This document shows positions 38,808 to 47,407 of a DNA stretch of 64,000 nt, piece after piece. The notes beneath the pieces were generated by a model that worked only from the letters and a program-made list of their open reading frames with translations, did not search any database and was not told where the DNA came from. The number at the start of each line of letters is the position of its first letter. The first letter of the stretch is position 1. This stretch comes from a virus, in IMG/VR virus record IMGVR_UViG_3300040751_004835, positions 1 to 64,000 of that record; one strand, 5' to 3'. The translations under genes were made by a program, and so were the position numbers.

Positions 38808-41303
38808 ATGGCATTTTCAAGCACATCAAAATACGTTCAGCTTACTCCTTACTTGGTAATGGAGTATAGATATGCAGATCAACCAAACCCAGAGGCATAT
38901 TTTGTCAACACCGGATCTCCATCAATTGGTTTTAATAAGTTGATCAATGGTGTGCTGGAAGATGATAACGGACAGCCTTCTAACGATGTACAGATAATGA
39001 ACCTCGACGAGGATCAATCTGTAACACAAAATACCCGTAATAATAGCGTTGTACAAACTAACCAAAATACGTTTATAACTCTTGATCCAGGACTTGTAGT
39101 ACCTTACAATGATTTTAATTCAGATCTTACAGATACTGCAGATCTCCCTATTACATTTCCTTCTAATATTCAAGTGATTTATGACTCTGTAAGGTATCAC
39201 ATTCTTGCTGGATATAACCTAAATAATATTGATGGTCTTGTTCTTCAGATTCAGTATCTTGATGTAAACGGATCTCATGTAACATTTTCGCAGATTAAAT
39301 TATCGAAGGGTTCTTCCCAGACTTACACATTGAGTCCAAATCCTCTGACGATTGGGTCTAATATTTTCGACAAATATTACGAAGTTAAGATACCAAGTCT
39401 CGTTGACATGAACAACAAGTACGGTGCAGCTACAGCTTCAAATAAGTCAAAAACTTTAGCTGGATTAACTAGTAAGAGCGGTCGGGGATATCAAACAGCA
39501 GCTCCGATAAGGATTAAAGCCTACGAGATTTTAAGTACAACAACCACCAATGGCTATGACACCTATGGCACGAATCTTCTGGCAGCTCTTTCTCTTGAGT
39601 CTACTGACCCATTTAAGAATATAGGTGCCTATATTGCACCGTCTGACCAGGGTGACTACTTTGAGTATTTTGCTACTGATGATGGTGGATTTCCGGAAGA
39701 TTTCATCCTCTTCCAAAATTCTATTGGAAATAGTTACTACCTAAATCATACTATTGAAACCCTTGAGCAAGTTGGAGGGGCACTGCTAAATACATCTAAT
39801 TTTAGTAATATCCAAACCACTGCCTATGATGTTCCGAACCTTTTAAGGCCTATTGTTAGATACCCACAGGTTGCTTCTTCTTTTACCTTGAGATACACCA
39901 TGACTCTGGTTAATAACAAAGATCAATCAAGGCTTATCAGAATTGCAACCTACACTTCTACTGATGTGAGTAGATATGGTGCTGAAATTCAGCCATTGCA
40001 ACTTCAGGTTCTTCCTCAGCAGCAAAAGATTTACAACAAGGTGGCTGGTAGCACAAACATATCGGTTCCAAGCAGCGGAATAACACCCAGTCAGATTACA
40101 AAATTTGCAAATGTTTTTGTTGACAGGACCTTAGTAAACACCTCACTTACCAATCTGGTTGTAAATGGGAGTACCTTGAGAGAAGACACCTCTAACCAAA
40201 CTACGGCTAGTGCAGCAATTTCTTACGGGGTTGGTCAAGCATACATTACTATTTCTCCTTTTGATAACTATTATAAGTTTACATTTTTCCAAAAGGCAAA
40301 TGACGGGACTACTAAAAATATAGATCTTTCCTCTTCTGGCGAATATTCAATGGTATTTGTTGACAACCAGAATAAGAAGGTTAGTGCTCCATCAATAGCT
40401 GATAATAATATTGCTAAACCTGCAAAGGGGGAACTAGCCTTTAAAATAGATGAAACCCTATCAACGCAAATATTGCAGTTTACCAATAAGAAGTTTTATA
40501 TTTCTAATAGGCCTAGGGTTGAAGCAAACACAGGTAATGATGGAAACGCTTCTGCTTTGAGCAACTTAAGATCACAAGTACAGTCTAGAACAACCTCTTT
40601 TAATAGATCTGTATCTGATATTTCTGTTTCTTCTCAAAACAACCAAGCAAAGATTGGAACTGCTAACATTTCAGCTAAATCCTCCTCGGTTTTATATTGG
40701 GGAAATTGGATATTAGAAGACGAGACTGCTCCACAAGTAAGTGTTGATACTGATCTACAAACCGGAACTATTTCTTCTGGTGAGGCTACGATTGGAAATA
40801 TTCTAGATCTCTTCCCAACACAAACAACCGGTCAATCCTCTTGGCAAGCATACGGGTCAACCTCTGGTAACAATCAGGCAAATACTCCACAATCTGCAAC
40901 GACAACAACTGGTGGATCCCAAACGAGTAATTTAAGTCCTGCAGAAATAAGGAGTTCTATAGCATCCGATGTCCAAGGTAAGATAGAATTGGAATGGTCG
41001 ACCAACGATATACTCGCTTACTATTTGGATCCTTCTGGTGTTGGGTATAAGCTTTACGGAGGTATTAGTAAAGGTGTATTTTATCAAGCAGTAAGTGGAA
41101 TATTCGATAACACTGCACTTGGTATCCTCTATAATTACGGGAACACTGGATTTGGAACCACCAATGGTGGAGCTGCAGCAAGCAACAATTCCAGCAATAA
41201 TGCATCCGGAAACGATAGTGGAAGTAGTACTGCTTCTACAAGTGGAACCTCTGGGGGATCACAAGGGCCAAAGGGTACTTTACCATCATTTATAACCGTG
41301 TAA
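38808..41303 (+). CDS. Virion structural protein
   Basis: 831 aa with a low-complexity S/T/G C-terminus; context. Confidence 0.45.
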   Translation: MAFSSTSKYVQLTPYLVMEYRYADQPNPEAYFVNTGSPSIGFNKLINGVLEDDNGQPSNDVQIMNLDEDQSVTQNTRNNSVVQTNQNTFITLDPGLVVPYNDFNSDLTDTADLPITFPSNIQVIYDSVRYHILAGYNLNNIDGLVLQIQYLDVNGSHVTFSQIKLSKGSSQTYTLSPNPLTIGSNIFDKYYEVKIPSLVDMNNKYGAATASNKSKTLAGLTSKSGRGYQTAAPIRIKAYEILSTTTTNGYDTYGTNLLAALSLESTDPFKNIGAYIAPSDQGDYFEYFATDDGGFPEDFILFQNSIGNSYYLNHTIETLEQVGGALLNTSNFSNIQTTAYDVPNLLRPIVRYPQVASSFTLRYTMTLVNNKDQSRLIRIATYTSTDVSRYGAEIQPLQLQVLPQQQKIYNKVAGSTNISVPSSGITPSQITKFANVFVDRTLVNTSLTNLVVNGSTLREDTSNQTTASAAISYGVGQAYITISPFDNYYKFTFFQKANDGTTKNIDLSSSGEYSMVFVDNQNKKVSAPSIADNNIAKPAKGELAFKIDETLSTQILQFTNKKFYISNRPRVEANTGNDGNASALSNLRSQVQSRTTSFNRSVSDISVSSQNNQAKIGTANISAKSSSVLYWGNWILEDETAPQVSVDTDLQTGTISSGEATIGNILDLFPTQTTGQSSWQAYGSTSGNNQANTPQSATTTTGGSQTSNLSPAEIRSSIASDVQGKIELEWSTNDILAYYLDPSGVGYKLYGGISKGVFYQAVSGIFDNTALGILYNYGNTGFGTTNGGAAASNNSSNNASGNDSGSSTASTSGTSGGSQGPKGTLPSFITV

Positions 41304-41336: not shown

Positions 41337-41897
41337 ATGGCTATATTAAACGCAAGAGCAAATAGCTTTTATTTCGTATTTCCGAAAGGATTCTTTCCCG
41401 AGAAGGTCCATGAGAAGTATATTGACTACTTAAAAAAGCAGCCTACCCCATACGATACTCTAACTTCGTATATGAATAGCACTATACAAAGTGTGACATT
41501 TCCTTCGGTTAGTATGGATTTGTCTGAACAGGTTAGAAATTTAGGTAAGAGGATTAACTATCAGAGTGCAACACCGGTTCAGGATTTATTTAACAGGGAG
41601 TTCCAGGTTTCCTTTAGAATAGCAGAGGGGTTTGTAAATTACTTTATTATGCTAGAAACTGTTTTGGATTATCTGGATTTTAAGAATCCTGGTACATATA
41701 TTCAAAATTTGCCACTTAGGACTTTGGATAATGAGGGTAATATCCTGACAACAGTTATGTTCAAAGAAGTGACCCTAACATCTTTCTCCGAACTAAACTT
41801 GAACTATACACAAAACACTCCTTCTGTTTACACATTTAATGTTGGGTTCAAATGTAACTATTTGGGTCTCGATCTTGAAATTGGTAAGGAAAGGTAA
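41337..41897 (+). CDS. Tail tube terminator/tube-fold protein (T4 gp3-like)
   Basis: QSVTFPSV..FQVSFRIAEGFVNY..LRTLDN..VMFKEV..SFSELNLNY..FNVGF follows the gp3/gp19 pattern. Confidence 0.55.
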   Translation: MAILNARANSFYFVFPKGFFPEKVHEKYIDYLKKQPTPYDTLTSYMNSTIQSVTFPSVSMDLSEQVRNLGKRINYQSATPVQDLFNREFQVSFRIAEGFVNYFIMLETVLDYLDFKNPGTYIQNLPLRTLDNEGNILTTVMFKEVTLTSFSELNLNYTQNTPSVYTFNVGFKCNYLGLDLEIGKER

Positions 41898-42190: not shown

Positions 42191-42219
42191 AAAGCCTTCC
42201 TATTTAGGAGGGCTTTTTT
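42191..42219 (+). terminator. Intrinsic terminator ending the structural module
   Basis: aaagccttccta-tt-taggagggcttt hairpin followed by a T-tract. Confidence 0.8.
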
Positions 42220-42257: not shown

Positions 42258-42929
42258 TTGAAAACACTAGTCGGAATAGATTTTTCCCTCAATTCACCAG
42301 CATTTTGTATTTTAAGAGAAAACCAATTTACTTGGGGTTCCCTAACTAGGAGCGACCGGACTGCGGAATCCCTTAAGAAAAATACTAAAAAACCTTACTA
42401 TGTTTTATCTGAAGACAAAACGGAAGACTATGTTCTTATGTTTATGTCAAAGGATAAAATGCCAGAAGACTACTCGGAAAGGGAAAGAATAAAGATAGAT
42501 TATTTCCAGGAGCTCGTTGATGAATTTTGGTCTGAAATAGAAAATATCTGTGCAGGTGATGACATCATTGTAGCTATGGAAGGACTAAGTTTTGCCTCTA
42601 ATGGTAATGCTTTGATTGATATCTCTATGGCCACAGCTCTACTCCGTAAGAAGATAGTTGACCACACAGGTAGCGATAATTTCTACGTTTATTCGCCAAC
42701 TTCTATAAAGAAGTTCGCTTTTAAGGGAAATGCAAAAAAGCACGAACTTTATAATTCACTTCTTGATCGCAAATTTCCAGAAACTAATTTAGGGTCTTTC
42801 ACTAGTATTTTAGAAGAAAATAAGGACGAATGGATAACTCCCTCCGGTAATGTAAACAAGCCATTGGATGATATTATAGATTCGACCTGGATATGTTTAT
42901 TTTTATATGACTCAATCAAAGAAGGTTAA
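42258..42929 (+). CDS. RuvC-like Holliday junction resolvase
   Basis: VGIDFSLNSPA, VAMEGLSF, PTSIKKFA..GNAKK and DDIIDS catalytic motifs. Confidence 0.8.
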   Translation: MKTLVGIDFSLNSPAFCILRENQFTWGSLTRSDRTAESLKKNTKKPYYVLSEDKTEDYVLMFMSKDKMPEDYSERERIKIDYFQELVDEFWSEIENICAGDDIIVAMEGLSFASNGNALIDISMATALLRKKIVDHTGSDNFYVYSPTSIKKFAFKGNAKKHELYNSLLDRKFPETNLGSFTSILEENKDEWITPSGNVNKPLDDIIDSTWICLFLYDSIKEG

Positions 42930-43638
42930 CATTCTTATTCCTCTCGGAGGTGCTGGAAGGAGATTCAGCGACGCTGGATACTTACAGATAAAGCCATTTA
43001 TAGACGTCAGCGGAGAAACGATGATTAGGTCTGTGATCAAAAACCTAAATCATCAAGATGCACACTTTGTATTTGTGATAAACGAGGAATATATTTCTCC
43101 CACAGAATTTGAATCCCATATATCAGACATGGGAATATCGTTTGAGGTTTTCTCAACCCCAACCCTAACACAAGGACCAGCTTCAACAGTTCTCTTTGCA
43201 AGTCAGTCGATTGATAACGATTTACCCCTTATTGTTGTTAACTGTGATCAGATTATTCTGGATTTCAATCTGGACTTCATTTTAGATTTTGCAAGAACTA
43301 CGGGGTGTGATGGATTGTTGGGATGTTTTCTTTCCTCTTCTAAAAAGAACAGCTATGTTAAGTTAGATCCAAACGGAGAGGTCTGTGATGTGAAGGAAAA
43401 AATTGTGATTTCCAACATTGCTACTAACGGGTTACATTTTTGGAAGCACGGCAAATACTTTGTAGAAAGTGCGGAACAAATGATAGCAGCAAACGATCGA
43501 TATAATAATGAGTTCTACGTTGCACCTACCTACAATTACATGATAAAAAGTGGAAAGAAAATATTGCCCTTCTTCTATAACCTTCACTTTCCGATAGGTA
43601 CCCCAGAGGACCTGGATAAATTTTTAAAGTTGGTTTAG
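42907..43638 (+). CDS. Sugar-phosphate nucleotidyltransferase (GT-A/NTP_transferase fold)
   Basis: ILIPLGGAGRRF..GY..IKPFIDV, TQGPAST, VVNCDQ, VKEK..ISNIATNG, NNEFYVAPTYN and IGTPEDL. Confidence 0.85.
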   Translation: MTQSKKVNILIPLGGAGRRFSDAGYLQIKPFIDVSGETMIRSVIKNLNHQDAHFVFVINEEYISPTEFESHISDMGISFEVFSTPTLTQGPASTVLFASQSIDNDLPLIVVNCDQIILDFNLDFILDFARTTGCDGLLGCFLSSSKKNSYVKLDPNGEVCDVKEKIVISNIATNGLHFWKHGKYFVESAEQMIAANDRYNNEFYVAPTYNYMIKSGKKILPFFYNLHFPIGTPEDLDKFLKLV

Positions 43639-43641
43639 TTT

Positions 43642-43965
43642 ATGGAAGTTTATAGAATTGAAGATATGGAGGGAGGTTGGTATGCTGGAGATTTCTCCCC
43701 AGTAGCTTACCAAACTAGTGATTTTGAGATTTGTTATAAAAAGCACTTCAAGGGCGAAGAGTGGCCAAAACATTACCATAAGGAAGCGGATGAAATAAAC
43801 TTCCTCAGATCGGGTAAAATGATTATACAAGGACGGGAATTAAATTCGGGGGATGTGTTTATTCTAAGGAAAGATGAAATTGCTGACCCCGTATTTTTGG
43901 AAGACTGTGAAGTTTTTATAGTTAAGACCCCCTCGGTTCCTGGTGATAAATTTGTAATTGAATGA
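43642..43965 (+). CDS. Cupin-fold protein
   Basis: HYHKEADEINFLRSGKMII..LNSGDVFIL cupin metal-binding motif. Confidence 0.75.
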   Translation: MEVYRIEDMEGGWYAGDFSPVAYQTSDFEICYKKHFKGEEWPKHYHKEADEINFLRSGKMIIQGRELNSGDVFILRKDEIADPVFLEDCEVFIVKTPSVPGDKFVIE

Positions 43966-45197
43966 TAAGCATTTTTAAAAATAAGGCGGATTTCGATACA
44001 TCCCAGTATTTTATAGTCAAATACTTTTTGGAAGCTAAAACTTCTTTGAGAGAAGCTTCCTGGAATTTGGCTATAGGTCAAAGTATAGGTAACCCGAATA
44101 ATAGGAGCGAGTGGGAAACCGATGAGATGTTTGAAAATCACAGTTGCTTTATTCTTGCAAACGAAGAAGATCTTGCCCAACTAAAAGAGGGCGAGATCGA
44201 GATAGCTTTTCCTCTAGCAAATCTTAATTTGGAAGAAGACGGGATCTCTCAAATACTTTGTCATATAGCTGGTGGTCAGGTTGACATAGAGGAAGTAAGA
44301 CAATGTCATGTCTTGGACATTTCTTTGCCTGAGGATGCTGAGAGATCATTTTCTTTAAATCCGGCCTATGGTATTGATGGATGGAGGAAATTTAATGGTA
44401 TAAACCAAAGACCTTTCTTAGGTGGAATAGTTAAACCTAAGGTTGGTATGTCTCCCTCTGTTCTTCTCGAAGCTGTGAAGGAAATGGTTTATGGTGGTGT
44501 GAATTTCATCAAAGAGGATGAATTACTTGCTAACCCTTCCCACTGCCCTCTTGAAGAAAGAGTACCTTTGATTTCATCCTGGTTAAAAGAGAATGCGCCC
44601 AACGTAATTTATTGCTTTTGCATAAATGGTGATAGTCCATATGCCTTAGAAAGAGCAAAATTTGTAGCAGATAACGGTGGGAACGGAATACACATAAACG
44701 TGTGGAGTGGACTGGGAATTTATCGTGCTATTAGAAAGCAAAATCCAAATCTCTGGATACATTTCCAAAAGAGCGGAGATAAATTCTTTACTGACCGTAG
44801 GGCGCCAAACCACATTTACTGGCCGGTTTTGTGCAAGATCGCTGGATGGTCTGGAGTCGATTCGATCCATGCAGGAATGATCGGCGGTTATATGAGCCAA
44901 GATGAGCAGGAAATAAAAGATACCTTACAAACCCTTTGGAATTATAACATTGTTCCTGCTTTAAGCTGTGGTATGCATCCAGGGCTTGTTGAGTATATTA
45001 ATACAACAATAGGAAGCTTCGATTGGATGGCAAACGTTGGTGGTGCTATGCATGGACACCCTCAGGGGACTAGGACTGGTGCCTTGGCAATGAGACAGTC
45101 TATCGATGGAGATCACGATCAACCTGAATATAAAGCAGCAATAGAAAAATGGGGTAACAAATGTTTCTCTGAAGATCTAGACTATCGAATATTCTGA
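43962..45197 (+). CDS. RuBisCO-like protein (form IV RLP)
   Basis: GGIVKPKVG (K175/K177), GGVNFIKEDE (K201/D203/E204), GVDSIHAG (H327), PALSCGMHPG (S379) and GGAMHGHPQG. 411 aa. Confidence 0.92.
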   Translation: MISIFKNKADFDTSQYFIVKYFLEAKTSLREASWNLAIGQSIGNPNNRSEWETDEMFENHSCFILANEEDLAQLKEGEIEIAFPLANLNLEEDGISQILCHIAGGQVDIEEVRQCHVLDISLPEDAERSFSLNPAYGIDGWRKFNGINQRPFLGGIVKPKVGMSPSVLLEAVKEMVYGGVNFIKEDELLANPSHCPLEERVPLISSWLKENAPNVIYCFCINGDSPYALERAKFVADNGGNGIHINVWSGLGIYRAIRKQNPNLWIHFQKSGDKFFTDRRAPNHIYWPVLCKIAGWSGVDSIHAGMIGGYMSQDEQEIKDTLQTLWNYNIVPALSCGMHPGLVEYINTTIGSFDWMANVGGAMHGHPQGTRTGALAMRQSIDGDHDQPEYKAAIEKWGNKCFSEDLDYRIF

Positions 45198-45198
45198 T

Positions 45199-45633
45199 AT
45201 GAAGCTAATATCACATAGAGGTAATTTAAAAGGTCCAAATCCGGATAGAGAAAATACGATTGACTATATACAGGAAGCTCTTGATCTGGGGTATGATGTG
45301 GAGATCGACGTTTGGATCTCCGGAGCATCAATCTATTTGGGACACGATTCTCCAGAAACCAAAATACATCTTGCTTGGCTTTTAGAAAGAGGGGATAAGT
45401 TATGGATACATTGTAAAAACATATCAGCTATGGTTTATCTGAAGGAATATGGAGATCTCAATGTTTTTTGGCACGAAAACGACAAGGTAACCCTTACCTC
45501 TAAATCTTTCATTTGGGCTTTTCCTGGGATGCAACCAATTAGCAAAAGCATTGCGGTTTTACCTGAGATGTACGAGGAGAAAGTTGATAGTTGTTGTGGT
45601 GTATGTTCTGATTATATTGTGAATTATTCATGA
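45199..45633 (+). CDS. Minimal GDPD/PLC-like phosphodiesterase-fold protein
   Basis: ISHRGN..ENT..ALDLGYDVEIDVW..LGHD..WIHCKN..GVCSD. Confidence 0.8.
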   Translation: MKLISHRGNLKGPNPDRENTIDYIQEALDLGYDVEIDVWISGASIYLGHDSPETKIHLAWLLERGDKLWIHCKNISAMVYLKEYGDLNVFWHENDKVTLTSKSFIWAFPGMQPISKSIAVLPEMYEEKVDSCCGVCSDYIVNYS

Positions 45634-46412
45634 GGATTGCCTTACTACTTCCTGGTCAAATAAGGGAAGCTCAGGATTCCTTCCCGTTTATCAAGTCAGA
45701 AATTTTAGATAAGTACGATACTGATGTTTTCATATCAACCTGGAATCCTTCCGGTGAAATCAACCAGTCTCTTCATGCTGAAACTAAGGACCTAGTGGAT
45801 TCCTTAACTATTGACGATCTTATAAAGATGTATTCACCTAAGCATTTGAAGACTGACGATTTTGGTTCTGCTGCGATTAAAAGGTTTATTGACAGAGCTT
45901 GGTCGTATGAAAAGTTTGGTCCACAGACTGGTGAGATCAACCCAGTGTCTGTTTTTTTGATGTGGTATAAAATTAGACAAGCTTTCTCCCTGATGGAAGA
46001 ATATGAAATCCAGGTAGGTCAAAAGTACGATTGCGTCATCAAGGGAAGAATGGATATTAAGATCCACAATGAATTGAATTTAGGACGGGACTTGGATAAG
46101 ATCAACGTCCCTCCTGGGTTTGATTGGAAGGGTGGAGTAAATGATATATTGGCTTGGGGTGGCAGAGAATCAATGGAACATTACTGCAAAATGTTCGACT
46201 ATCTGGAGGAGTATATTATATCCGATATTTACTTCCACCCTGAAACTTTACTAAGATATCACATAGAAAGTTCTGAATTTGGTTTATCTAGGCCGTTTGT
46301 CAAAGTTTCACTCCGAGGTAAGAATGTTTGGGAGACCGAAGTATCAGAAAACGAAATAGATGAAAAAAGTTTTGGATATATAATGTCTAGGGGAAACATT
46401 TGGGACACTTAG
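45630..46412 (+). CDS. Putative glycosyltransferase-like protein
   Basis: MRIALLLPGQIRE..DVFISTW..MWYKI..YDCVIKGRMD..NDILAWG..HPETLL, a pattern typical of GT-like genes in polysaccharide loci. Confidence 0.6.
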   Translation: MRIALLLPGQIREAQDSFPFIKSEILDKYDTDVFISTWNPSGEINQSLHAETKDLVDSLTIDDLIKMYSPKHLKTDDFGSAAIKRFIDRAWSYEKFGPQTGEINPVSVFLMWYKIRQAFSLMEEYEIQVGQKYDCVIKGRMDIKIHNELNLGRDLDKINVPPGFDWKGGVNDILAWGGRESMEHYCKMFDYLEEYIISDIYFHPETLLRYHIESSEFGLSRPFVKVSLRGKNVWETEVSENEIDEKSFGYIMSRGNIWDT

Positions 46413-46453: not shown

Positions 46454-47407
46454 ATGAGTAATTTAGACATTTTTAATTTGGATGCGGAAGCATTCGTAAC
46501 GAAAGCAAAAAAGGAGAATTCAGAAGGAACAGAATTTTACAAACCATATCCGGAAAACGGAAAGGATGGAGTTTACAAATCGCTGATCCGTTTTCTTCCT
46601 AACCACGTCGATCCGACGAAATCAAAAATCCACAAGTACTACGTTTATCTAAACGATCCAACAACAGGTGATGGATTTCCAGTTGACTGTCCGTCAACGG
46701 TAGGAAAAAAATCGGTACTTAAGGATATGTTCTGGAAGCTGAAAAATTCACATTCAGCAGCAGACCAAGAATTATCAAGAAGTTTTTCTAGAAAGGAAGA
46801 CTACTACTCACTCATTCAAATCGTACAGGATAAACACAATCCTGAGCTTGAGGGAAAAATTATGATCTTCAAATTTGGACGTAAGCTGAATGATATGCTC
46901 GAAGCACAGCTCAAGCCTGAATATGGAGATTCTTGCAACCCTTACGACCTTTTCGAGGGTAAACTTTTCTCAGTACATACAAGAAAAGTTGGTGAGTGGA
47001 ACAACTACGATCTTTGCTCATTCGTTGGTGATAGAACCGCTATCGAGATCAACGGCAAGAAGATGGCTAAGAATCAGGATGACATGAATGCAATCATGGA
47101 ATACCTTAAAACAGGTCCTGATAACCTCACACAATTTGAATACAAGGATTGGGATCAAAATACTACCGACCGTGTGATGAATGTTATTAAGAATTCAGTT
47201 CCTGACGGAAGATTAGTTAATGAGGTTTTAGGAGGTGTAAACCAATCTTCTACTACAACTTCATCTTCTAGTTCAACGAACGATTTCTATAATGAAGCTT
47301 CTTCAACAAAGGTAGGATCCGAACCTGCAAAAGAGGATAAAGGCATCAGCCAACCTTCAGCACCAGAAACTTCATCGTCCCTAGACGACCTATACGCAGA
47401 TCTCTAA
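46454..47407 (+). CDS. Single-stranded DNA-binding protein (T4 gp32-like)
   Basis: IRFLP, CPSTVGK, GKIMIFKFG, NPYDLFEG, NNYDLCSF, and an acidic tail LDDLYADL. Confidence 0.85.
   Translation: MSNLDIFNLDAEAFVTKAKKENSEGTEFYKPYPENGKDGVYKSLIRFLPNHVDPTKSKIHKYYVYLNDPTTGDGFPVDCPSTVGKKSVLKDMFWKLKNSHSAADQELSRSFSRKEDYYSLIQIVQDKHNPELEGKIMIFKFGRKLNDMLEAQLKPEYGDSCNPYDLFEGKLFSVHTRKVGEWNNYDLCSFVGDRTAIEINGKKMAKNQDDMNAIMEYLKTGPDNLTQFEYKDWDQNTTDRVMNVIKNSVPDGRLVNEVLGGVNQSSTTTSSSSSTNDFYNEASSTKVGSEPAKEDKGISQPSAPETSSSLDDLYADL

What the first reader, a model, noticed from the sequence alone, without database searches (positions are those of the whole stretch)
42907..46412. Phage five-gene cassette coupling a RuBisCO-like protein to sugar activation and transfer enzymes
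Seen: five tightly packed, co-oriented genes inserted between the core genes RuvC and gp32. They are a sugar nucleotidyltransferase (overlapping the RuvC 3' end), a cupin, a RuBisCO-like protein (ATGA overlap), a minimal GDPD/PLC-fold enzyme and a GT-like protein (ATGA overlap). Established: characterised form IV RLPs perform enolisation-based chemistry (isomerisation, tautomerisation, decarboxylation, transcarboxylation) on phosphorylated ketose-like substrates in methionine salvage and branched-sugar catabolism. Inference: here the RLP works biosynthetically. RLP and cupin would rearrange a host sugar phosphate into an unusual ketose or branched sugar, the nucleotidyltransferase would activate it, the GDPD-like enzyme would trim phosphate, and the GT would attach it to virion proteins, DNA or the host surface. 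I know of no described phage pathway with this composition.
Basis: partly seen in the sequence, partly recalled or inferred. Interest (0 to 1): 0.93.

Follow-up and report, generated by a model that had tools for sequence, protein, structure and literature searches.

The report
Phage RuBisCO-like sugar-activation gene cassette
An estuarine/marine tailed phage carries, as an optional insert between two DNA-handling genes, a five-gene operon built around a RuBisCO relative that cannot fix CO2; the same RuBisCO branch sits beside the same activating enzyme in other phages, SAR11, Legionella and tiny archaea, so it most likely makes an unusual activated sugar-like unit for surface glycans, a role never tested for this enzyme family.

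Summary
Five co-oriented, touching or overlapping genes lie between a RuvC-like resolvase and gp32: an NTP_transferase, a 107-aa cupin, a 411-aa RuBisCO-like protein (RLP), a 144-aa minimal GDPD barrel and a 260-aa GT-A-fold protein (DUF7796-like).

The cassette is accessory. Of 80 phages sharing the backbone, 16 carry it, 59 have RuvC directly before gp32, and 4 carry only the mini-GDPD.

The RLP-nucleotidyltransferase pair is conserved far beyond this lineage: 77 of 80 viral loci, and cellular loci from SAR11, DPANN archaea, Azospirillum and Legionellaceae. These RLPs form one clade with an invariant derived active site. The Mg/carbamate site is kept, while H294Q, R295K and K334Y rule out carboxylation.

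Fusions and neighbours (HAD, cupin, DHBP synthase, ribulose-phosphate epimerase, LicD, sugar-tailoring genes) point to an NDP-activated unit derived from a ketose phosphate and used for glycan decoration. The chemistry is unknown.

Phage RLPs were already reported (Jaffe et al. 2018) without context or function. This scan has flagged the same cassette many times on other DNA.

The parts
42258..42929 (+). RuvC-like Holliday junction resolvase. A backbone gene, not part of the cassette; it forms the upstream border and overlaps the cassette's first gene by 23 nt.
   Evidence: phrog_159, E 6.8e-13. Conserved next to gp32 in 79 of 80 backbone relatives.
42907..43638 (+). Nucleotidyltransferase of 243 aa (phrog_3980 family). 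Predicted to activate the pathway's phosphate ester as an NDP derivative.
   Evidence: PF00483, 41.3 bits (cut-off 21.2), and PF12804. phrog_3980, E 4e-56. PDB 4evw, E 2e-14. Adjacent to the RLP in 77 of 80 viral loci and 40 of 43 cellular loci of the clade. Relatives are fused to HAD_2, cupin, mini-GDPD or DHBP synthase.
43642..43965 (+). Minimal monocupin of 107 aa with an H-x-H...E metal site. Predicted isomerase-type step on the RLP substrate or product.
   Evidence: phrog_24762, E 1e-29. Motif G38x5H44xH46x4E51x6G58 is invariant and there is no motif-2 His. PDB profile hits: YxaG, small Cupin_2 proteins / a chain deposited as 'mannose-6-phosphate isomerase', and KdgF. Atlas places it in Cupin_2. 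Fused to the C-terminus of the NTP in L040, L044, L056 and others, and in P0255 and P0301.
43962..45197 (+). RuBisCO-like protein of 411 aa, in the NTP-linked 'form IV-like' clade. Predicted Mg2+/carbamate-dependent enolisation or isomerisation of a ketose phosphate. Not a carboxylase.
   Evidence: PF00016, E 1.3e-32. All NCBIfam equivalogs score far below cut-off. Active-site map: K158, K160, K184, D186, E187 and H303 are kept, with Q269 (H294), K270 (R295), Y310 (K334), C336 (G380), Q40/N44/P45 (E60/T65/W66) and Q106 (N123). The clade has support 100.
45199..45633 (+). Minimal GDPD/PLC-type barrel of 144 aa (phrog_34507). Predicted phosphodiesterase acting on a pathway intermediate or product.
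   Evidence: AF2 pLDDT 97.3. VIA Z 10.2-7.5 to 22 GDPD/PLD chains. Profile against PDB GDPD 7e0v, E 1e-4. Invariant H6, R7, E35, D37, H49, H71, K73, H92, C136 and D138. Fused in public proteins to p260-type, NTP, HAD, Rpe, APS-kinase, GT61, GT-D and methyltransferases.
45630..46412 (+). GT-A-fold transferase-like protein of 260 aa (phrog_13607, DUF7796-like). Predicted to pass the activated unit to an acceptor.
   Evidence: AF2 pLDDT 88.5. Foldseek E 7e-7 to 1e-5 to BoGT6a, glycogenin and ABO transferases, TM about 0.45. Invariant G9, R140 and D142. Atlas places it in DUF7796 clusters. At least 11 public proteins are p144+p260 fusions.
46454..47407 (+). gp32-type ssDNA-binding protein. A backbone gene forming the downstream border.
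   Evidence: PF08804 and phrog_224, E 2e-33. Covered in full by contigs of four RNA libraries.
42191..42216 (+). Terminator-like hairpin (11 bp stem plus T-run) upstream of RuvC. No + strand terminator-like site lies between it and gp32, so RuvC, the cassette and possibly gp32 may form one transcription unit.
   Evidence: consensus scan only.

Best explanation
The five genes form a self-contained, horizontally mobile operon. It makes an unusual nucleotide-activated unit from a host ketose phosphate and hands it to a glycoconjugate, most likely a host surface glycan and possibly a virion protein.

Inferred steps:
1. The RLP keeps the carbamylated-Lys/Mg2+ enolisation machinery but has a different, invariant substrate pocket. 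It rearranges (isomerises or tautomerises) a phosphorylated ketose from the pentose-phosphate pool.
2. The small metal cupin carries out an adjacent isomerase-type step, as the cupin domain does in bifunctional PMI-GMP enzymes.
3. The nucleotidyltransferase converts the resulting phosphate ester into an NDP derivative. I favour an open-chain NDP-ketose or NDP-alditol-type donor (like CDP-6-fructose, CDP-xylulose, CDP-ribitol or CDP-ME) slightly over a classical sugar-1-phosphate donor.
4. The DUF7796 GT-A-fold protein transfers the unit.
5. The mini-GDPD processes a phosphodiester made on the way or in the product.

Shown: the gene identities and folds, the loss of carboxylase residues, the accessory nature of the cassette, the conserved linkage and the fusions.
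Inferred: the substrate, every reaction, the nucleotide used and the acceptor.
For: Linkage:
- The RLP co-occurs with NTP in 77/80, cupin in 74/80, p144 in 61/80 and p260 in 33/80 viral loci. Only 15-16 of those 80 share the RuvC/gp32 backbone.
- The RLP-NTP pair persists in SAR11 (including a complete chromosome), DPANN archaea, Beckwithbacteria, Verrucomicrobia, Azospirillum (a p144-RLP-cupin-NTP operon), Turneriella, Francisellaceae and four Legionellaceae, down to 31-34% RLP identity.

One function:
- These RLPs form one clade (SH-aLRT 100).
- The derived active site is identical in 93 of 93 rows. RLP relatives outside the clade keep the RuBisCO residues.

Rosetta-stone fusions:
- HAD_2+NTP is dominant among the long forms.
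- NTP+cupin.
- p144+NTP+cupin, NTP+p144+HAD and p144+p260.
- NTP+DHBP synthase in cyanophage S-SKS1, PF00926 E 5e-65.
- p144+ribulose-phosphate 3-epimerase, E 2e-61.
- DHBP synthase and Rpe both act on ribulose-5-P.

Glycan context:
- SDR epimerase/dehydratase in 28 loci, O-methyltransferases, GT2, UDP-GlcNAc 2-epimerase and DegT aminotransferase.
- A TAL/FSA-like aldolase and DHBP synthase in the L020 island.
- GT9 and a CMP-sugar synthetase in SAR11.
- CysD/CysNC and GT41 in Azospirillum.
- The single LicD gene of each of four Legionellaceae genomes lies 0.35-2.3 kb from the pair.

Precedents for cytidylyl transfer to open-chain ketose phosphates: CTP + fructose-6-P gives CDP-6-fructose (PMC10918830); CDP-xylulose is a precursor of CDP-arabinitol (PMC13576159).

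The genes are maintained and probably used:
- dN/dS is 0.03-0.21 where dS is not saturated.
- Contigs from four metatranscriptome libraries match NTP, the NTP/cupin junction, the RLP and the RLP/p144 junction at 95% identity or more.
Against: - No enzyme of this RLP clade, this NTP family (phrog_3980), the mini-GDPD or DUF7796 has been characterised. Every reaction step is analogy.
- This phage's 91-kb record has no HAD_2, SDR or LicD gene. A mutase, reductase or phosphotransferase step would have to be absent or supplied by the host. The record is only about 33% of the genome.
- p260 is present in only 33 of 80 loci, so the transferase is exchangeable.
- Four backbone relatives carry the mini-GDPD alone, so it can work without the RLP.
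- The GT-A match is moderate (TM about 0.45) and there is no canonical DxD motif.
- RNA-library contigs can derive from contaminating DNA.
- The cassette sits among DNA-metabolism genes, which is not where glycan genes usually lie.
Confidence: 0.55

Rival explanations
1. A salvage or auxiliary metabolic shunt like the Rhodospirillum rubrum MTA-isoprenoid shunt. There an RLP (5-methylthioribulose-1-P 1,3-isomerase) and a cupin (methylthioxylulose-5-P methylsulfurylase) convert a SAM by-product into 1-deoxyxylulose-5-P. Here the nucleotidyltransferase would act like IspD further downstream. The phage would recycle MTA or 5'-deoxyadenosine-derived sugars, or boost isoprenoid precursors.
For: - An RLP-cupin functional pair is established in that shunt (review PMC6302742). 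Here RLP and cupin are adjacent in 74 of 80 loci.
- NTP relatives give weak sub-threshold IspD hits, E 2e-4 to 8e-3.
- The DHBP made by the fused RibB domain of S-SKS1 is, like DXP, a 1-deoxy-2-ketose phosphate (chemistry from established knowledge).
Against: - No MtnK/MtnA/MtnP, DXR, IspE or IspF in the window or in the loci examined.
- The RLP is far below every MtnW model. The R. rubrum RLP structure is not among the 60 listed PDB sequence matches.
- The cupin matches no NCBIfam model.
- The shunt does not explain the conserved mini-GDPD, the GT-A-fold protein, LicD, or the methyltransferase, SDR and aminotransferase neighbours.
Confidence: 0.12
2. A DNA hypermodification module. The activated unit is attached to phage DNA bases to evade host restriction, which would explain the position between a resolvase and the ssDNA-binding protein.
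For: Position among replication and recombination genes, possibly in one transcription unit with RuvC and gp32. Phages are known to glycosylate DNA using NDP-sugars (established knowledge).
Against: - The same RLP-NTP(-cupin-GDPD) set sits in cellular LPS/glycan islands of SAR11, Azospirillum and Legionellaceae.
- In most other phages it sits inside sugar-tailoring islands, not among DNA genes.
- No base hydroxymethylase, DNA glycosylase-like or kinase partner is conserved with it.
- 59 of 80 close backbone relatives do without it.
Confidence: 0.08
3. A methionine-salvage-like trio. The RLP would be a DK-MTP-1-P enolase (MtnW), the HAD a phosphatase (MtnX) and the cupin an acireductone dioxygenase (MtnD). 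This would make it an ordinary salvage AMG.
For: The RLP/HAD/cupin trio recurs in the family. The cupin has an HxH...E metal site of the kind ARD uses (the ARD comparison is from established knowledge).
Against: - NCBIfam MtnW models score 118.7 against 409 and 89.2 against 513.6.
- The cupin is 107 aa and lacks the fourth His ligand.
- The HAD is of the beta-phosphoglucomutase-like HAD_2 type, is fused to the nucleotidyltransferase, and is absent from this phage record.
- No MtnK, MtnA or MtnB is present, and the nucleotidyltransferase, GDPD and GT-A have no role in this pathway.
Confidence: 0.04
4. The cassette makes a soluble phosphodiester or nucleotide-linked small molecule rather than a glycan decoration. 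Examples would be a compatible-solute-like diester made by the logic of di-myo-inositol-phosphate synthesis, or a signalling or inhibitor nucleotide.
For: - Nucleotidyltransferase + phosphodiesterase + HAD phosphatase triple fusions exist.
- There is a weak NCBIfam hit to inositol-1-P cytidylyltransferase/DIPP synthase, E 0.0017.
- p260 is dispensable in more than half of the loci.
Against: Strong and repeated association with glycosyltransferases, LicD and sugar-tailoring enzymes. No CDP-alcohol phosphatidyltransferase partner was seen.
Confidence: 0.08

Closest known systems
'Form IV-like' RuBisCO-related proteins of phages and Beckwithbacteria (Jaffe, Castelle, Dupont and Banfield 2018/2019, Mol Biol Evol, PMC6389311)
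   Same: The same protein family. It is phage-borne (Myoviridae-type, often in large genomes), divergent from all other RLPs, partly retains RuBisCO catalytic residues, and groups with Beckwithbacteria sequences (my tree).
   Different: That paper reports the proteins only and leaves function open. Its text does not mention the nucleotidyltransferase, cupin or glycosyl context. New here: the obligate gene linkage, the fusions, the cellular carriers (SAR11, Legionellaceae, Azospirillum, DPANN) and the invariant clade signature.
CDP-ketose / CDP-alditol donor pathways (C. jejuni HS:5 CDP-6-fructose to CDP-6-glucitol, PMC10918830; S. pneumoniae CDP-xylulose to CDP-arabinitol, cited in PMC13576159; TarI/TarJ CDP-ribitol; IspD CDP-ME)
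   Same: A GT-A-clan nucleotidyltransferase activates an open-chain ketose or alditol phosphate drawn from central sugar-phosphate pools. The unit is then installed in capsule, LPS or teichoic acids, often by LicD-type transferases. SDR reductases and LicD are neighbours of the module in other genomes.
   Different: Those pathways take the sugar phosphate directly from metabolism; none uses an RLP, a cupin or a GDPD. This phage record has no reductase and no LicD. Membership of the window's NTP in those enzyme families is not shown, since only generic PF00483/PF12804 hits were found.
Bifunctional type II phosphomannose isomerase / GDP-mannose pyrophosphorylase (AlgA/ManC type) plus phosphomannomutase
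   Same: An architecture of NTP_transferase and cupin (fused in several relatives) with a HAD-type mutase or phosphatase partner. The logic is ketose-P to aldose-P, then sugar-1-P, then NDP-sugar.
   Different: The cupin here is 107 aa, lacks the motif-2 His and matches no PMI model above threshold. An RLP and a GDPD are added. The comparison is from established knowledge of that family, not a tested membership.
Rhodospirillum rubrum MTA-isoprenoid shunt (RLP MTRu-1-P isomerase plus cupin MTXu-5-P methylsulfurylase; Erb 2012 and Warlick 2012 as reviewed in PMC6302742)
   Same: The only characterised pathway in which an RLP and a cupin act consecutively on a ketose phosphate.
   Different: A different RLP clade with a different active-site signature. 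No methylthio-sugar genes are present. Here the pair is tied to a nucleotidyltransferase and to glycan genes.
Glycerophosphodiester phosphodiesterases (GDPD, e.g. T. maritima 1o1z; phage K gp155 C-terminal domain)
   Same: p144 has the barrel core and the catalytic H-R...E-x-D...H-D motif.
   Different: It is about 100 residues shorter than any solved GDPD, gives no Pfam GDPD hit, and occurs as a domain fused to biosynthetic enzymes rather than as a scavenging or lytic enzyme.

Membership tests
Bona fide RuBisCO (forms I-III carboxylase) | Carbamylated Lys and Mg2+ ligands (K201, D203, E204) plus K175 and K177 | tested here: met
   K184, D186, E187, K158 and K160 are present and invariant in 93 of 93 clade rows.
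Bona fide RuBisCO (forms I-III carboxylase) | Carboxylation and P2-site residues H294, R295, H298, K334, and N-domain E60, T65, W66, N123 | tested here: not met
   Replaced by Q269, K270, D273 and Y310, and by Q40, N44, P45 and Q106. NCBIfam rubisco_III scores 164.5 bits against a cut-off of 497.
MtnW / YkrW DK-MTP-1-P enolase | Scores above the NCBIfam equivalog cut-offs, with methionine-salvage neighbours | tested here: not met
   PRK09549 scores 118.7 against 409 and TIGR03332 scores 89.2 against 513.6. No mtn genes were found among the neighbours.
OiaX 3-oxo-isoapionate-4-phosphate decarboxylase (apiose catabolism RLP) | Scores above the NCBIfam equivalog cut-off | tested here: not met
   123.3 bits against a cut-off of 700.
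R. rubrum-type RLP (MTRu-1-P 1,3-isomerase) with cupin methylsulfurylase | Sequence membership in that RLP clade and that cupin family | not testable with these tools
   No reference sequence or model was available by reference. Only the RLP-cupin adjacency is shared. The original papers are not held.
Phage/Beckwithbacteria 'form IV-like' RLP clade (Jaffe 2018) | Phage-borne RLPs that group with Beckwithbacteria RLPs, apart from other forms | tested here: met
   The Beckwithbacteria row L094 nests inside the viral subclade. The whole NTP-linked clade has support 100 and a stem of 1.17.
NTP_transferase (PF00483) | Score above the Pfam gathering threshold | tested here: met
   41.3 bits against 21.2. 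The substrate class (sugar-1-P or open-chain phosphate) was not determined.
Cupin superfamily | Motif 1, G-x5-H-x-H-x3,4-E-x6-G | tested here: met
   G38...H44, H46, E51...G58; the metal ligands H44, H46 and E51 and G58 are invariant, G38 nearly so. The motif-2 His is absent. No Pfam hit was found; the PDB profile gives E 2e-6 to 1e-4.
GDPD (glycerophosphodiester phosphodiesterase) | TIM-barrel fold with catalytic His/Arg, Glu/Asp metal ligands and a second His | tested here: met
   H6, R7, E35, D37 and H49 are invariant. Z is 10.2 over 138 of 144 residues to 1o1z. The profile gives E 1e-4 to 7e0v. The Pfam GDPD model gives no hit, so this is a minimal, divergent member.
GT-A glycosyltransferases | GT-A Rossmann-like fold with a DxD-type metal/nucleotide motif | tested here: inconclusive
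   The fold matches GT6/GT8 enzymes at E 7e-7, but TM is only about 0.45. The invariant motif is R140-x-D142, not DxD. Relatives give only sub-threshold DUF7796 hits.
LicC/LicD-type phospho-unit transfer systems | A LicD-family transferase next to the nucleotidyltransferase | tested here: not met
   There is no LicD in the phage record or in any viral locus. The feature is met only in the four Legionellaceae genomes.

The most novel reading that the evidence does not exclude
This RLP clade catalyses a reaction not yet known in the RuBisCO superfamily. It would make an acyclic keto-sugar phosphate from ribulose-5-P, xylulose-5-P or a bisphosphate. That product would be nucleotide-activated as an open-chain donor and installed, with the help of a miniature phosphodiesterase, as a new phosphodiester-linked glycan substituent. 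Phages would use it to redecorate the host surface (for example to block superinfection or mask receptors). SAR11, Legionellaceae and DPANN archaea would use it in their own envelopes.
Probability: 0.3. Interest if true: 0.85.

Novelty: new variant of a known kind. Interest (0 to 1): 0.7.

Why it matters
RuBisCO-like proteins are a classic test case for how an enzyme scaffold acquires new chemistry. All characterised RLPs work in salvage or catabolism. Here a large, environmentally abundant RLP clade has a fixed, derived active site and is tied by gene order and gene fusion to a nucleotidyltransferase. The clade occurs in phages from estuaries, oceans and lakes, in SAR11, in Legionellaceae and in DPANN archaea. 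That linkage points to a biosynthetic role and to an unknown activated building block in microbial and viral glycans.

It also turns the open question left by Jaffe et al. 2018 (what do phage RLPs do?) into a defined in-vitro experiment with three small soluble proteins. Cultured carriers are named for genetic tests.

For phage biology, the cassette is a clean example of an optional 'moron' that is present in about a fifth of otherwise syntenic genomes.

Tried and rejected
- The GenBank phage collection holds no DNA or protein match to the cassette or the RLP. Only the NTP family has cultured-phage relatives, in cyanophages and phiRSL1.
- Literature searches combining RLP with phage, nucleotidyltransferase, glycan or DUF7796 gave nothing beyond Jaffe 2018. 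Warlick 2012 and Tabita 2007 are not held.
- I could not build a full superfamily tree with labelled MtnW, DeepYkr or Photo RLP references, because no reference sequences were available by reference. I used NCBIfam scores, PDB ranks, a tree rooted on RuBisCO-like rows found in genomes, and Jaffe's published placement.
- An apparent 706-aa RLP-cupin-NTP fusion in Azospirillum was rejected. It is a spurious long frame in high-GC DNA, and the real genes are separate.
- The L055 p144+p260 fusion alone looked weak. The protein census then showed at least 11 further such fusions.
- dS was saturated in most pairwise comparisons.
- LicD was sought in all viral loci and in the phage's own record and not found. 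HAD_2 and SDR were not found in the own record either.
- In the RNA-library contigs I saw no cover on RuvC or p260. With contigs this proves nothing.
- I did not run complex prediction, because I claim no specific protein-protein binding.
- I did not use the search of protein representatives, because unlabelled hits would not have sharpened the placement.

Full report
**Observation**

The region holds exactly the genes described, all on the + strand:
- RuvC-like resolvase, 42258-42929
- nucleotidyltransferase, 42907-43638
- 107-aa cupin, 43642-43965
- 411-aa RuBisCO-like protein (RLP), 43962-45197
- 144-aa protein (p144), 45199-45633
- 260-aa protein (p260), 45630-46412
- gp32, 46454-47407, followed by a primase-like gene

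I read the junctions directly. The NTP start lies 23 nt inside RuvC. The gaps are 3 nt and 1 nt, and there are two ATGA overlaps (cupin/RLP and p144/p260). GC content is flat across the region. A strong terminator-like hairpin lies before RuvC at 42191-42216, and no terminator-like site lies on the + strand inside the cassette.

**Identities**
- NTP: Pfam PF00483 above threshold, and phrog_3980 at E 4e-56.
- RLP: Pfam PF00016 at E 1e-32.
- Cupin: canonical motif 1 with H44, H46 and E51 invariant in 41 relatives and no motif-2 His. A profile of it hits cupins in the PDB: YxaG, small Cupin_2 proteins, a chain deposited as 'mannose-6-phosphate isomerase', and KdgF.
- p144: folds with pLDDT 97. 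Its best 22 structural matches are all GDPD/PLD barrels, Z 10.2-7.5, covering 136-140 of 144 residues. It carries the HRG..EN..ExD..GHD catalytic motif.
- p260: folds with pLDDT 88.5 as a GT-A fold, nearest to GT6/GT8 enzymes at E 7e-7 and TM about 0.45. It belongs with viral DUF7796-like proteins.

**The RLP is not a carboxylase**

I aligned it to Pyrococcus RuBisCO and to 98 relatives.
- Kept: K175, K177, the carbamate Lys K201, D203, E204, H327, S379, G381 and G403/404.
- Changed: Q for H294, K for R295, D for H298, Y for K334, C for G380, Q/N/P for E60/T65/W66, and Q for N123.

Every NCBIfam equivalog scores far below its cut-off: form III 164 against 497, MtnW 119 against 409, OiaX 123 against 700. 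The protein is therefore not a standard methionine-salvage enolase and not an apiose-pathway RLP.

**The cassette is an accessory insert**

I collected 80 viral contigs whose gp32 is 63-100% identical and which share the tube / orf81 / RuvC / gp32 / primase backbone.
- 16 carry the five genes between RuvC and gp32 (gap about 3.5 kb).
- 59 have RuvC directly before gp32 (gaps 70-720 bp, one of 1.3 kb).
- 4 carry only the mini-GDPD at that site.
- The remaining locus is too short to include RuvC.

**The linkage is conserved far beyond this lineage**

Among 80 viral loci found through the RLP (51-99% identity), counts within 6 kb are NTP 77, cupin 74, p144 61 and p260 33. Only 15-16 of these loci share the RuvC/gp32 backbone.

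In one-genome-per-species prokaryotic contigs, the same RLP lies beside the same NTP in 40 of 43 clade loci. The carriers include:
- SAR11, including a complete chromosome
- DPANN archaea
- Beckwithbacteria and Verrucomicrobia
- Elusimicrobia and Turneriella
- Azospirillum oleiclasticum, with a p144-RLP-cupin-NTP operon
- Francisellaceae and four Legionellaceae

A tree of 99 RLPs puts all NTP-linked ones in a single clade (SH-aLRT 100, stem 1.17). Beckwithbacteria falls inside the viral subclade, matching Jaffe et al. 2018. Within that clade the derived active-site residues are identical in 93 of 93 rows. The six rows outside it keep the RuBisCO residues H294, R295, H298, K334 and G380. I read this as one conserved catalytic function.

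**What the partners say**

The NTP family is found in several fused forms:
- fused to a beta-phosphoglucomutase-like HAD_2 domain; this is the overwhelming majority of long forms
- fused to the cupin
- fused to the mini-GDPD, with or without HAD or cupin
- in cyanophage S-SKS1, which has no RLP, fused to a bona fide DHBP synthase domain at E 5e-65

The mini-GDPD is fused in public proteins to the p260/DUF7796 type (at least 12 cases), to ribulose-phosphate 3-epimerase (E 2e-61), to an APS-kinase-like kinase, to HAD/PMM-like domains, to GT61, GT-D and WavE-type transferases, and to methyltransferases.

DHBP synthase and Rpe both act on ribulose-5-P. A separate DHBP synthase and a TAL/FSA-like aldolase lie in the same island as the RLP in several phages.

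Neighbours elsewhere are typical glycan-tailoring genes:
- SDR epimerase/dehydratase (28 loci), O-methyltransferases, GT2, UDP-GlcNAc 2-epimerase and DegT aminotransferase
- GT9 and a CMP-sugar synthetase in SAR11
- PAPS synthesis genes and GT41 in Azospirillum

In four of four Legionellaceae genomes, the only LicD gene in the genome lies 0.35-2.3 kb from the RLP-NTP pair. LicD-type enzymes transfer a phospho-unit from a CDP-activated donor (established knowledge).

**Most likely mechanism (inferred)**

A host ketose phosphate, probably from the pentulose-phosphate pool, is rearranged by the RLP through Mg-carbamate-dependent enolisation. The cupin adjusts it. The nucleotidyltransferase activates it. 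The GT-A-fold protein passes it on. The mini-GDPD handles a phosphodiester along the way.

Precedents exist for cytidylyl transfer directly to open-chain ketose phosphates: CDP-6-fructose (PMC10918830) and CDP-xylulose (PMC13576159). The NTP+cupin(+HAD) architecture also recalls bifunctional PMI-GMP enzymes plus a phosphomannomutase (established knowledge).

Whether the donor is an open-chain NDP-ketose/alditol or a sugar-1-phosphate-derived NDP-sugar is open.
- For the open-chain donor: LicD next to the pair, the RibB fusion and the phosphodiesterase.
- For the sugar-1-phosphate donor: the beta-PGM-like HAD and the GT-A fold.

**Evidence of use**

dN/dS is 0.03-0.21 where it can be computed. 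The phage DNA is near-complete in estuary, marine, seawater and oyster metagenomes from many studies between 2020 and 2025. Contigs assembled from four metatranscriptome libraries match at 95% identity or more. They cover parts of the NTP, the NTP/cupin junction, the RLP, the RLP/p144 junction and all of gp32. This is consistent with transcription but not proof, because DNA can contaminate such libraries.

**Rivals**
- An MTA-isoprenoid-shunt-like salvage. An RLP plus cupin pair is known in R. rubrum (PMC6302742), but the other pathway genes are missing and it does not explain the GDPD, GT-A, LicD and tailoring partners.
- DNA hypermodification. This fits the position in this phage but not the cellular homologues in LPS islands.
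- An MtnW/MtnX/MtnD-like trio. The model scores reject it.
- A soluble phosphodiester product. This remains possible at low odds.

**Novelty**

Phage RLPs are known (PMC6389311), but that paper does not discuss gene context. I found no paper that does. This scan has already flagged the same cassette on other DNA many times, with the same general verdict.

- the presence/absence test at the RuvC-gp32 site
- the 93-of-93 active-site signature
- the LicD link in Legionellaceae
- the DHBP-synthase and Rpe fusions, which point to pentulose phosphates
- the census of mini-GDPD fusions
- the RNA-library contigs

**Limits**

No enzyme of any of the four uncharacterised families has been assayed. The record is about a third of the phage genome. 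The host is unknown.

Noticed in passing
L149-L151 and L158 (viral contigs), between the RuvC and gp32 homologues: Four backbone relatives carry only the mini-GDPD gene (52% identical to p144) at the exact site where this phage has the five-gene cassette. This could be a remnant of the cassette or an independent gain. Either way the mini-GDPD can be useful on its own.
   Followed up: partly
L082:5001-6428 (Synechococcus phage S-SKS1, SWZG_00042): A homologue of the cassette's nucleotidyltransferase is fused to a full DHBP synthase (RibB) domain. The phage has no RLP. The gene lies next to a SIS phosphoheptose-isomerase-like gene, a transaldolase, a C-methyltransferase and a DUF7796-like gene. 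It looks like a parallel pathway to an activated C4 keto-phosphate.
   Followed up: partly
L084 (contig of an 'uncultured Saprospirales' MAG): A 64-kb contig binned into a Bacteroidota MAG carries the same cassette; best matches to the viral-locus cassette proteins are 91-99%, and its RLP is 83% identical to the window's. This is either a mis-binned phage contig or a hint that the host is in Bacteroidota. gp32 is also nearest to Lak and other huge phages of Bacteroidota.
   Followed up: no
P0296, P0297 and P0315 (public proteins): Mini-GDPD domains 39-45% identical to p144 occur in proteins of chytrid fungi (Geranomyces) and of a diatom (Thalassiosira). The domain therefore reaches eukaryotes. 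Giant-virus contigs (GVMAG) also carry the RLP cassette (L056, L071, L073).
   Followed up: no
window 38808-41303 (+): An 831-aa ORF just upstream of a tail-tube-like gene (41337-41897, phrog_45) has no Pfam or PHROG match. It is conserved in the backbone relatives (cluster 7, 19 loci).
   Followed up: no
L118 (Azospirillum oleiclasticum RWY-5-1-1, contig 67): A cultured bacterium has the four-gene core p144-RLP-cupin-NTP. It is followed directly by CysD, a CysN/APS-kinase fusion and a TPR-GT41 protein, and preceded by a 1286-aa ORF with no family. This strain is a practical genetic model for the pathway. A mini-GDPD+APS-kinase fusion (P0254) echoes the sulfation link.
   Followed up: partly
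P0303 and P0319 (public proteins of about 1150-1200 aa): Giant multi-domain enzymes have the order NTP, mini-GDPD, HAD_2, a second NTP, then an unassigned C-terminal part. Two nucleotidyl-transfer steps may occur in some versions of the pathway.
   Followed up: no
window 46454-47407 (gp32): A weak sub-threshold Pfam hit to 3-keto-disaccharide hydrolase (PF06439, 22 bits against a cut-off of 26.8) lies within gp32. It is probably noise.
   Followed up: no
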